A stretch of DNA of 64,000 nucleotides from Escherichia coli (GTDB lineage Bacteria; Pseudomonadota; Gammaproteobacteria; Enterobacterales; Enterobacteriaceae), in assembly GCF_036507355.1 (NCBI RefSeq), contig NZ_AP027877.1, one strand, 5' to 3'. A program made the position numbers. Below are positions 1 through 1,801 of this stretch, piece by piece. Position 1 is the stretch's first letter. Each line of letters opens with the position of its first letter.

Positions 1-1801
1 CGACAATTCTAATATCTGCACATCAATGAAAATACAAACAACTTCCGGCAAAAAGGTGATACAAGATCGATGACATAGCGTTGAAGAAAAGGATTTGATA
101 ATCCGCAAAATTTGCACAACACTGCCTGTAATACTTCCTGAACCAGAGACGATCATGACCGTAACCCGCCCACGCGCCGAACGCGGCGCATTTCCGCCCG
201 GAACAGAACATTACGGACGTTCATTATTGGGCGCGCCGTTAATCTGGTTTCCGGCCCCTGCAGCCAGTCGCGAAAGTGGTTTGATTCTGGCTGGCACTCA
301 CGGTGATGAAAACTCTTCGGTCGTCACGCTCTCCTGTGCTCTGCGGACTTTGACACCTTCTTTGCGCCGCCATCATGTGGTGCTGTGTGTGAATCCTGAC
401 GGCTGCTAGCTGGGGTTACGGGCCAATGCTAATGGTGTGGATTTAAACAGAAACTTTCCGGCGGCGAACTGGAAGGAAGGTGAAACGGTTTATCGCTGGA
501 ACAGCGCCGCTGAAGAACGTGATGTCGTTTTACTGACAGGTGGCAAACCTGGCTCCGAACCTGAAACCCAGGCGCTGTGCCAGCTTATACACCGCATTCA
601 ACCTGCCTGGGTGGTCTCATTCCACGATCCACTGGCCTGTATTGAAGATCCCAGACACAGCGAATTAGGCGAATGGCTGGCTCAGGCGTTTGAATTGCCT
701 CTGGTAACCAGCGTCGGTTATGAAACGCCTGGCTCTTTCGGCAGTTGGTGTGCAGATCTGAACTTGCATTGCATCACCGCAGAGTTTCCGCCCATCTCCT
801 CCGACGAAGCCAGCGAAAAATATCTCTTTGCGATGGCAAACTTGCTGCGCTGGCATCCTAAAGATGCAATTCGCCCGTCGTGAACTGAAGCGCCGGTTCC
901 ACATCTACCGCCAGCCAGGTCGGTCCGTCAAGATCGGCGAAACTGACCTGCGGCACCAGCGGTAAAGCGGCGCTAATGGCACGAGAGGTACACAACATGC
1001 AGCCCAGCATCAGACTGAAACCTTGTGCACGCGCTTCAGTCGCCAGCGCCAGCGCTTCCGTCAGACCCCCGGTTTTATCGAGCTTAATGTTAACCATCTC
1101 ATAGCGCCCTTTCAGCTCCTTCAGATTGCTACGAGTATGACAACTTTCATCAGCACAAATCGGCAACGGATGAATAAAATTCTCCAGTGCCGCATCGTCC
1201 TGCGCAGGAAGCGGTTGTTCAAGCATCGCAACGCCTAAATCCGCCAATAGCTGGCAACGTGCCGCCAACCCTTCTGCACGCCAGGATTCATTTGCATCAA
1301 CGATCAGCGTGGCATCGGGCACAGCTGTGCGAATTGCCACCATCCGCTCACTGATAAGATGGTTATCCAGCTTCACTTTCAGTAATTTCGCGCCGGCCTG
1401 CCAGAGTGTTGATGCGCTATTGGCCATCTGATCAGGCGTACCGATGACTACCGTCTGTGCAGTGGTGACTGTCCCGGGAAGCGTTATGCCGATCAAATCA
1501 GCCAGCGATTGCTGCTGTTTTCGCGCCGCCAGATCCCACAATGCACAATCCAGCGCATTACGTGCTGCGCCGGCAGGGAGAATTTTTTGCAACTCCTCCC
1601 GTGTCAGCCCTTTCTCTAATTGCGGCACGACGCTCATAATTTGCGCCATTACCGAGGCATCACTTTCTCCATAACGCGGATACGGCGTGCATTCGCCGGT
1701 GCCTTTAATGCCTTCTTCTTCCAGTTCAACCACCACCACGCGCGCTTCACTGCGACTTCCCCGGGCAATCACAAACGGGGTATGTAAGGGCCAGGCTTCC
1801 T

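What the first reader, a model, noticed from the sequence alone, without database searches (positions are those of the whole stretch)
407..409. Single in-frame TAG splits mpaA
The two same-frame ORFs at 95-409 and 437-883 together reconstitute the full 242-codon MpaA length, with the N-terminus at ATG 155. They are separated only by a TAG at 407-409 in the motif ...CVNPDGC*LGLRANANGVDLNRNFP. That places the stop inside the conserved carboxypeptidase core, before the catalytic region, so a functional product is unlikely. A one-base change (such as CAG to TAG) would explain it.
Basis: seen in the sequence. Interest (0 to 1): 0.4.

Follow-up and report, generated by a model that had tools for sequence, protein, structure and literature searches.

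The report
Amber stop inactivates mpaA gene
A single C-to-T change has turned glutamine codon 85 of the cell-wall-peptide amidase gene mpaA into a stop codon in this rare, IS1-rich E. coli lineage, which makes it an ordinary young pseudogene rather than anything new.

Summary
ATG155..TGA883 is a 242-codon mpaA reading frame with one in-frame TAG at 407-409 (codon 85). The comparators read here (O157:H7 EDL933, K-12 MG1655, strain 19SZHZ713Rt, the solved E. coli MpaA structure 5HXD, Vibrio harveyi MpaA) have CAG/Gln there, so the lesion is a C-to-T transition at position 407. The base call is real: two independent public assemblies are identical or nearly identical to the window over 3.8-3.9 kb and carry the same TAG, and GenBank already lists the downstream piece as a separate "hypothetical protein" (BED22585.1). 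Neither of the two TAG-bearing 59-mers has an exact match in about 5,400 complete RefSeq E. coli genomes, where mpaA is a near-universal gene. The stop lies inside the M14 peptidase domain. It comes after the HxxE zinc motif (H49, E52) but before NRNF (98-101), His157 and Glu210, so neither fragment can be an enzyme. The expected effect is loss of the dispensable catabolic branch for murein tripeptide; Mpl recycling remains. The same Q85* occurs on at least three other mpaA haplotypes, and E121* and Q139* alleles also exist, so loss of function recurs and is tolerated. The same window has other lesions (ycjV stop, ycjM::IS1, ycjS deletion, ycjT-pgmB fusion). Low interest.

The parts
155..883 (+). 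mpaA (murein tripeptide amidase, M14 zinc peptidase) reading frame; pseudogene through one internal amber codon
   Evidence: Translation. NCBIfam NF007897 MpaA equivalog scores 476.6 bits (cutoff 157) when codon 85 is read as Gln. PDB 5HXD E. coli MpaA E=1.3e-165. The colinear RefSeq CDS is annotated mpaA.
407..409 (+). TAG at codon 85. The mutated base is T407 (C in the comparators), i.e. CAG(Gln)->TAG
   Evidence: Base-by-base comparison with EDL933. The 59-mers of several genomes are shown. Gln is also conserved in V. harveyi MpaA.
155..406 (+). Residual N-terminal coding part (84 aa). It holds only the HxxE zinc motif (H49, E52)
   Evidence: This exact 84-aa product is called on public contigs.
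437..883 (+). Downstream same-frame ORF (GTG start, 148 aa), equal to MpaA residues 95-242. It holds NRNF 98-101, His157 and Glu210 but no HxxE. No AGGAGG-like sequence lies in 420-436
   Evidence: The exact product is deposited as BED22585.1 'hypothetical protein VEE46_23530 [Escherichia coli]'.
543..543 (+). Second amino-acid difference, Asp130->Gly (GAC->GGC). Asp is conserved in E. coli 5HXD and V. harveyi MpaA
   Evidence: The 148-aa product carrying Gly130 is also encoded on L004, where codon 85 is CAG, so this is a separate polymorphism.
858..1823 (-). ycjG (L-Ala-D/L-Glu epimerase), the next enzyme of the same catabolic branch. It is convergent with mpaA, overlaps its 3' end by 26 bp, and is intact
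   Evidence: tblastn gives 321/321 residues with no stop. Annotation of colinear genomes. The exact protein is BED22586.1.

Best explanation
This is a genuine nonsense mutation fixed in one lineage: a C-to-T transition at window position 407 (CAG Gln85 -> TAG) in the chromosomal mpaA gene of a rare, IS1-rich E. coli lineage. Translation from ATG155 terminates after 84 residues. That peptide has two of the three presumed zinc ligands (H49, E52). It lacks the substrate-binding NRNF segment, the third ligand (His157) and the catalytic Glu210, so no amidase is made. Mechanistically, the cell loses the MpaA branch that splits imported or recycled murein tripeptide (L-Ala-gamma-D-Glu-meso-Dap) into L-Ala-D-Glu and Dap. 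The tripeptide can still be re-used by the Mpl ligase, so the loss is expected to be nearly neutral. The downstream enzyme YcjG loses its supply of substrate from this route. No polar effect is expected, because mpaA is the last gene in its orientation and ycjG is convergent. What is shown: the stop, the ancestral codon, its reality in independent assemblies, and its position inside the domain. What is inferred: loss of activity, the roles assigned to individual residues, and near-neutrality.
For: The stop and frame are established. The only differences from EDL933 mpaA are 407 C>T, 529 (synonymous) and 543 (D130G). Gln85 is present in PDB 5HXD and in V. harveyi 4AXV. The Pfam M14 domain spans residues 43-157. 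The NCBIfam MpaA equivalog is split into profile positions 1-84 and 95-236. Motif positions are HGDE 49, NRNF 98, His157 and Glu210. The same TAG occurs in GCA_905398585.1 (3,883/3,883 nt identical to the window) and in SRR17480487 (1 mismatch in 3,792). The fragments are already deposited as separate proteins from a 4.64-Mb E. coli chromosome (BED22585.1). mpaA is present in 5,414 of 5,426 complete E. coli genomes, and neither TAG-bearing 59-mer has an exact match in any of them. K-12 and O157 mpaA differ at 7 nucleotides and 0 amino acids, so the gene is normally under purifying selection. The pathway, with Mpl as the alternative route and PgrR repression of mpaA, is described in PMC9928106 and PMC6403190. 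Other lesions in the same window fit a decaying lineage.
Against: No expression, protein or enzyme data exist. The genome outside the window could not be checked for an amber-suppressor tRNA; none lies in the window. Apart from the stop the gene is pristine, with no frameshift or second stop, so the lesion is young and low-level read-through inserting Gln would give wild-type protein.
Confidence: 0.9

Rival explanations
1. Sequencing or assembly error: the true base at 407 is C and mpaA is intact.
For: A single-base substitution is the minimal possible error. No complete RefSeq E. coli genome has an exact match to either TAG-bearing 59-mer.
Against: The identical TAG is present in independently assembled data: GCA_905398585.1 contig CAJPYR010000005.1 (100% over 3,883 nt) and the Logan assembly of SRR17480487 (1 mismatch in 3,792 nt). 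It is also implied by the deposited protein BED22585.1. Substitution errors that create the same stop in separate projects are very unlikely.
Confidence: 0.03
2. Leaky or suppressed stop: UAG85 is read through, either by a suppressor tRNA or by near-cognate tRNA-Gln. This would restore the wild-type residue, so the strain would keep reduced but useful MpaA activity.
For: The ancestral residue is Gln, which is what a supE-type suppressor or near-cognate tRNA-Gln would insert (established knowledge, not tested here). The rest of the ORF is undamaged. The stop is followed by C.
Against: No tRNA gene lies in the window. Natural isolates rarely carry amber suppressors, and basal UAG read-through in E. 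coli is typically at most about 1% (my own knowledge). mpaA is already weakly expressed and repressed by PgrR in rich medium (PMC9928106), so about 1% of that level is unlikely to matter. The stop is not conserved in any relative, unlike programmed recoding sites.
Confidence: 0.05
3. Split but functional enzyme: the 84-aa N fragment and a C fragment re-initiated at GTG437 assemble into an active amidase.
For: Together the two ORFs cover 232 of 242 residues, and each still matches the MpaA model (149.6 and 285.5 bits).
Against: Residues 85-94 (QLGLRANANG, conserved from E. coli to Vibrio and even to human carboxypeptidase N) would be missing. No Shine-Dalgarno-like sequence precedes GTG437 (sequence 420-436 is GGGCCAATGCTAATGGT). 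The break lies inside the single M14 domain. Intact orthologues are never split.
Confidence: 0.01
4. Adaptive loss: inactivation of mpaA was selected, for example to channel all tripeptide into Mpl recycling or to change pools of Nod1-active tripeptide, rather than fixed by drift.
For: Q85* is found on at least four haplotypes: the window type, a K-12-like type (L005/L006/L009), L007 and L010. In the K-12-like type, differing SNPs lie 37 bp upstream and 3 bp downstream of the stop, so its origin is independent. E121* occurs on two haplotypes and Q139* also exists.
Against: These alleles were retrieved from a collection of billions of proteins by asking for the truncated product, so recovery of rare independent events is expected under neutrality. 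None of about 5,400 complete RefSeq genomes has an exact match to either TAG-bearing 59-mer. Several different stops occur at similar low counts, which argues for tolerance and not for a selected site. The window lineage also carries unrelated lesions.
Confidence: 0.07

Closest known systems
E. coli MpaA (b1326/ycjI), murein tripeptide gamma-D-Glu-meso-Dap amidase; PDB 5HXD (E. coli O157), 4AXV (Vibrio harveyi); NCBIfam NF007897; MEROPS/Pfam M14
   Same: The locus (upstream of convergent ycjG-tpx-tyrR), the length (242 codons) and 240 of 242 codons' amino acids match the O157/K-12 protein WP_000219122.1.
   Different: Codon 85 is TAG instead of CAG, so no full-length protein is encoded. There is also an Asp130Gly substitution.
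Single-nonsense pseudogenes of decaying E. coli/Shigella-type lineages (annotated by PGAP as 'internal stop')
   Same: One base change in an otherwise conserved core gene. It is accompanied in the same 64 kb by an IS1 insertion, small deletions and a second internal stop.
   Different: Nothing differs in kind. The specific allele has no literature record in the library searched.
Other natural mpaA nonsense alleles (E121* GAA>TAA; Q139* CAG>TAG) in public assemblies
   Same: Same gene, same class of lesion, scattered over different haplotypes.
   Different: Different codons. Q85* truncates earliest and is the one that separates HxxE from the rest of the active site.

Membership tests
MpaA (NCBIfam NF007897 equivalog; Peptidase M14) | Full-length sequence match above the curated cutoff | tested here: met
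   With codon 85 read as Gln the score is 476.6 bits against a cutoff of 157, covering profile positions 1-236 of 237. Pfam PF00246 scores 47.1 bits against 21.6. 5HXD gives E=1.3e-165.
MpaA (NCBIfam NF007897 equivalog; Peptidase M14) | Conserved genomic position: downstream of ycjY/ymjC, convergent with ycjG, then tpx and tyrR | tested here: met
   The window is colinear with the annotated EDL933, TB06052 and MG1655 regions.
MpaA (NCBIfam NF007897 equivalog; Peptidase M14) | Uninterrupted reading frame that places HxxE, NRNF, the third His and the catalytic Glu on one polypeptide | tested here: not met
   TAG at codon 85 separates H49/E52 from N98-R99, H157 and E210. The locus is therefore an mpaA gene remnant, not a functional family member.
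MpaA (NCBIfam NF007897 equivalog; Peptidase M14) | Zn-dependent hydrolysis of the gamma-D-Glu-meso-Dap bond of murein tripeptide | not testable with these tools
   This needs an enzyme assay. The activity is described for the intact protein in Uehara & Park 2003 and Maqbool 2012, as cited in PMC6403190 and PMC4600125.
Nonsense-mutation pseudogene | Orthologues carry a sense codon at the same position and are otherwise near-identical | tested here: met
   CAG in EDL933, MG1655 and 19SZHZ713Rt. There were 0 exact matches to either TAG-bearing 59-mer in 5,398 and 4,810 matching RefSeq genomes.
Nonsense-mutation pseudogene | The stop is reproducible in independent sequence data | tested here: met
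   GCA_905398585.1 and SRR17480487 carry it on the same haplotype.
Nonsense-mutation pseudogene | No suppressor tRNA in the genome | not testable with these tools
   Only the 64-kb window is available, and it holds no tRNA.
Programmed stop-codon recoding / read-through gene | The in-frame stop is conserved among orthologues | tested here: not met
   The stop is absent from the intact orthologues read here (EDL933, MG1655, 19SZHZ713Rt) and from the solved structures' sequences. It appears only sporadically on unrelated haplotypes.

The most novel reading that the evidence does not exclude
The recurrence of the identical Q85* on at least four mpaA haplotypes, together with E121* and Q139* alleles, might reflect convergent positive selection for loss of tripeptide catabolism. 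The benefit could be keeping murein tripeptide for Mpl recycling, or altering release of Nod1-active peptide in host-associated, genome-decaying E. coli lineages. The alternative is neutral decay.
Probability: 0.06. Interest if true: 0.4.

Novelty: already known. Interest (0 to 1): 0.08.

Why it matters
It matters little beyond annotation. This locus should be labelled as an mpaA pseudogene (internal stop), not as two hypothetical proteins. Strains of this lineage are predicted to be unable to release Dap from murein tripeptide, so they depend on Mpl for tripeptide re-use. With the ycj-operon lesions and the two identical IS1 copies, it adds one data point to the picture of a lineage accumulating gene-inactivating changes. 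Several independent mpaA nonsense alleles exist in public data, which shows that this near-universal, protein-conserved gene is still dispensable in some settings.

Tried and rejected
1. Dcm/5-methylcytosine deamination hotspot. The mutated C sits in CCAGC (CCAGT in the K-12-like haplotype), not in CCWGG, so this was rejected.

2. The first 59-mer test alone was not sufficient. The K-12-like TAG haplotype carries a second SNP at position 410 and would also score as one mismatch. I repeated the search with that haplotype and again found no exact match. TAG alleles with further SNPs inside the 59-mer cannot be fully excluded.

3. Contigs L012-L014 end within 2 nt of position 407, which looked like an IS insertion or a breakpoint at the same site. 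I rejected this as selection bias: looking up an exact 84-aa product necessarily retrieves contigs that happen to end inside codon 85. These contigs carry CA(G) and no IS sequence.

4. D130G as drift after inactivation. The same 148-aa product with Gly130 is encoded on L004, where codon 85 is CAG, so this was rejected.

5. L004 first looked like a third carrier of the allele. It is a contig start with Nextera adapter sequence and a CAG codon.

6. Literature searches for an mpaA pseudogene or premature stop in E. coli/Shigella found nothing relevant.

7. The primary papers (Uehara & Park 2003, PMC145344; Maqbool 2012) are not held in the library. Function was therefore taken from papers that cite them.

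8. The promoter/terminator scan of 1-1000 found nothing.

9. In one search the row for L015 is invalid because the start string was not found. It was ignored.

Full report
**Observation.** The window begins in the intergenic region upstream of mpaA. Reading 155-883 on the + strand gives 242 sense positions plus the terminal TGA, with one internal stop at codon 85 (TAG, 407-409) in the context ...HHVVLCVNPDGC*LGLRANANGVDLNRNFP.... RefSeq annotation of colinear genomes starts mpaA at the position of ATG155.

**Identity of the gene.** With codon 85 read as Gln, the product matches several references.
- The NCBIfam equivalog NF007897 "murein tripeptide amidase MpaA" scores 476.6 bits (cutoff 157) over profile positions 1-236 of 237.
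- Pfam Peptidase_M14 matches residues 43-157.
- The solved E. coli O157 MpaA structure 5HXD matches at E=1.3e-165, and V. harveyi MpaA 4AXV at E=2.6e-80.

The neighbours are the expected ones: convergent ycjG (overlapping the 3' end by 26 bp), then tpx, tyrR, ycjF and ycjX.

**The lesion.** Against O157:H7 EDL933, window 100-900 differs at three bases only:
- 407 T/C, which is TAG versus CAG.
- 529 T/A, synonymous.
- 543 G/A, which is Gly130 versus Asp130.

MG1655 and strain 19SZHZ713Rt also have CAG. Gln is present at this position in the 5HXD sequence and in the V. harveyi protein.

**Is the base call real?** The exact 84-aa and 148-aa products are in the public protein collection. The 148-aa piece is deposited as BED22585.1, "hypothetical protein VEE46_23530 [Escherichia coli]", from a 4,643,937-bp contig. 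Five further window proteins are exact matches to BED accessions in the range BED22586.1-BED22612.1 from the same record, and the sixth, the YcjT-PgmB fusion, clusters with the 928-aa BED22595.1. The window therefore comes from that strain or a near-identical one.

Two independent assemblies carry the same haplotype with the TAG. GCA_905398585.1 is identical at 3,883 of 3,883 nt, and the Logan assembly of SRR17480487 has 1 mismatch in 3,792 nt. A sequencing artefact is very unlikely.

**Frequency.** mpaA is found in 5,414 of 5,426 complete RefSeq E. coli genomes. A 59-mer centred on the TAG has no exact match in any of them, and the best hits have one mismatch. A K-12-like TAG haplotype carries a second SNP at 410 and would have scored the same, so I repeated the test with that 59-mer. 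Again there was no exact match. K-12 and O157 mpaA differ at 7 nucleotides but 0 amino acids, and both share protein accession WP_000219122.1. The gene is therefore normally under purifying selection.

**Consequence for the protein.** The stop lies inside the single M14 domain, not at a domain boundary. The motif positions are as follows:

| Motif | Residues | Side of the stop |
|---|---|---|
| HGDE (the HxxE zinc motif) | 49-52 | before |
| NRNF | 98-101 | after |
| SFHD (His157) | 155-158 | after |
| TAEF (Glu210) | 208-211 | after |

All four are conserved between E. coli and Vibrio MpaA. The block NANGVDLNRNFP aligns identically with human carboxypeptidase N. From general knowledge of M14 carboxypeptidases (zinc ligands HxxE plus a distal His, and a catalytic Glu near the C-terminus), the 84-aa product keeps two ligands and nothing else. 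That assignment is an inference, not read from the MpaA structure papers.

A product re-initiated at GTG437 would lack HxxE and residues 85-94. No Shine-Dalgarno-like sequence precedes GTG437. Neither fragment should be active.

**Consequence for the cell.** According to PMC9928106, PMC6403190 and PMC4600125, cytoplasmic murein tripeptide has two fates. It is either re-ligated by Mpl, or split by MpaA into L-Ala-D-Glu and meso-Dap, after which YcjG epimerises the dipeptide. mpaA is repressed by PgrR in rich medium.

Loss of MpaA therefore removes a conditional catabolic branch and leaves recycling intact. ycjG, which is intact here, loses its supply of substrate from this route. No polarity is expected because nothing lies downstream in the same orientation. 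These consequences are inferred, not measured.

**Other carriers and other alleles.** Asking where the 84-aa product is encoded also returned Q85* on other haplotypes:
- A K-12-like haplotype (L005, L006, L009), which differs from MG1655 at only 2-4 sites in 3.4-6.3 kb, including the TAG.
- L007.
- L010.

In the K-12-like haplotype, SNPs that distinguish it from the window lie 37 bp upstream and 3 bp downstream of the stop. That origin must be independent. Other genuine internal stops exist: E121* (GAA>TAA) on two haplotypes and Q139* (CAG>TAG).

These alleles were fished out of a collection of billions of sequences by their truncated products. No complete RefSeq genome has an exact match to either TAG-bearing 59-mer. 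I read this as evidence that loss of function is tolerated and recurs at a low rate, not as evidence of selection or of a site-specific hotspot. The context CCAGC/CCAGT is not a Dcm site.

**Lineage context.** No complete RefSeq E. coli genome is closer than 98.4-98.8% to the window over 7-20 kb stretches. A survey of 59 reference CDS, plus ycjQ/R/S/T from a second reference, against the window shows four more lesions:
- ycjV has an internal stop.
- A deletion of about 68 bp fuses ycjT to pgmB.
- ycjS has an in-frame deletion of about 180 bp.
- ycjM is split by a 768-bp IS1 with a 9-bp target duplication.

A second, identical IS1 copy runs off the window end. The mpaA stop fits a lineage that is accumulating inactivating changes. 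Apart from the stop the gene is undamaged, so the event is recent.

**Verdict.** The one refinement is that the stop splits the active site and does not precede all of it. This is an ordinary nonsense pseudogene, already visible as split ORFs in the public record. Interest is low. The only mildly novel reading, convergent adaptive loss of mpaA, is not excluded but is improbable on present evidence.

Noticed in passing
window 8851-9933 (- strand), stop at 9517-9519: ycjV (ABC transporter ATP-binding protein, 360 aa in the references) has an internal stop at codon 139. This leaves ORFs 9517-9933 (138 aa, exact match to BED22594.1) and 8851-9486 (211 aa).
   Followed up: partly
window 9947-12802 (- strand), junction near 10550-10564: A deletion of about 68 bp at the ycjT/pgmB boundary joins kojibiose phosphorylase YcjT (residues 1-751) in frame to beta-phosphoglucomutase PgmB (residues 15-219), giving one 951-aa ORF. 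The exact protein is seen on 4 public contigs. Whether the fusion is active is unknown.
   Followed up: partly
window 12799-13674 (- strand): ycjS (Gfo/Idh/MocA oxidoreductase) carries an in-frame deletion of about 180 bp, giving 291 aa instead of 351. It is an exact match to BED22596.1 / WP_338387613.1.
   Followed up: partly
window 18918-19685 (IS1); target duplications 18909-18917 and 19686-19694: A 768-bp IS1 is inserted in ycjM (glucosylglycerate phosphorylase) with a 9-bp target-site duplication CGTTCAGTT. It splits the gene at about codon 460 of 559.
   Followed up: yes
window 63371-64000: A second IS1 copy, 100% identical to the first over the 630 bp present, is cut by the window end. 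It lies after ymiA, where the reference has cysB next. Two identical IS1 copies in 64 kb suggest recent IS1 expansion.
   Followed up: partly
whole window: The best identity to any of 5,426 complete RefSeq E. coli genomes is only 98.4-98.8%, with no consistent nearest strain. The window's proteins exactly match GenBank BED22585.1-BED22612.1 (locus tags VEE46_*). The lineage appears rare or is missing from the comparison set.
   Followed up: partly
L005/L006/L009, L007, L010 (Q85*); L019/L020 (E121*); L023/L024 (Q139*): Independent mpaA nonsense alleles occur in public assemblies on several haplotypes. The identical Q85* occurs on a haplotype only 2-4 SNPs from K-12 MG1655.
   Followed up: partly
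window 406-409 and 14 other sites: The mutation creates a CTAG tetranucleotide (and a GCTAGC NheI site). CTAG occurs only 15 times in the 64 kb, against 117 +/- 11 expected from shuffles. This is the well-known CTAG depletion of E. coli.
   Followed up: no
window 39378-46969 (- strand): A cluster encoding an MFS transporter, an outer-membrane factor, an RND permease, an adaptor and a TetR regulator lies between sapF and fabI. Only 995 of 5,426 genomes cover at least 80% of window 24000-44000, so part of this stretch is accessory.
   Followed up: no
window 543: Asp130Gly in MpaA changes a residue conserved between E. coli and Vibrio MpaA. The 148-aa product carrying Gly130 is also encoded on L004, a different haplotype with an intact codon 85, so it is a standing polymorphism.
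   Followed up: yes
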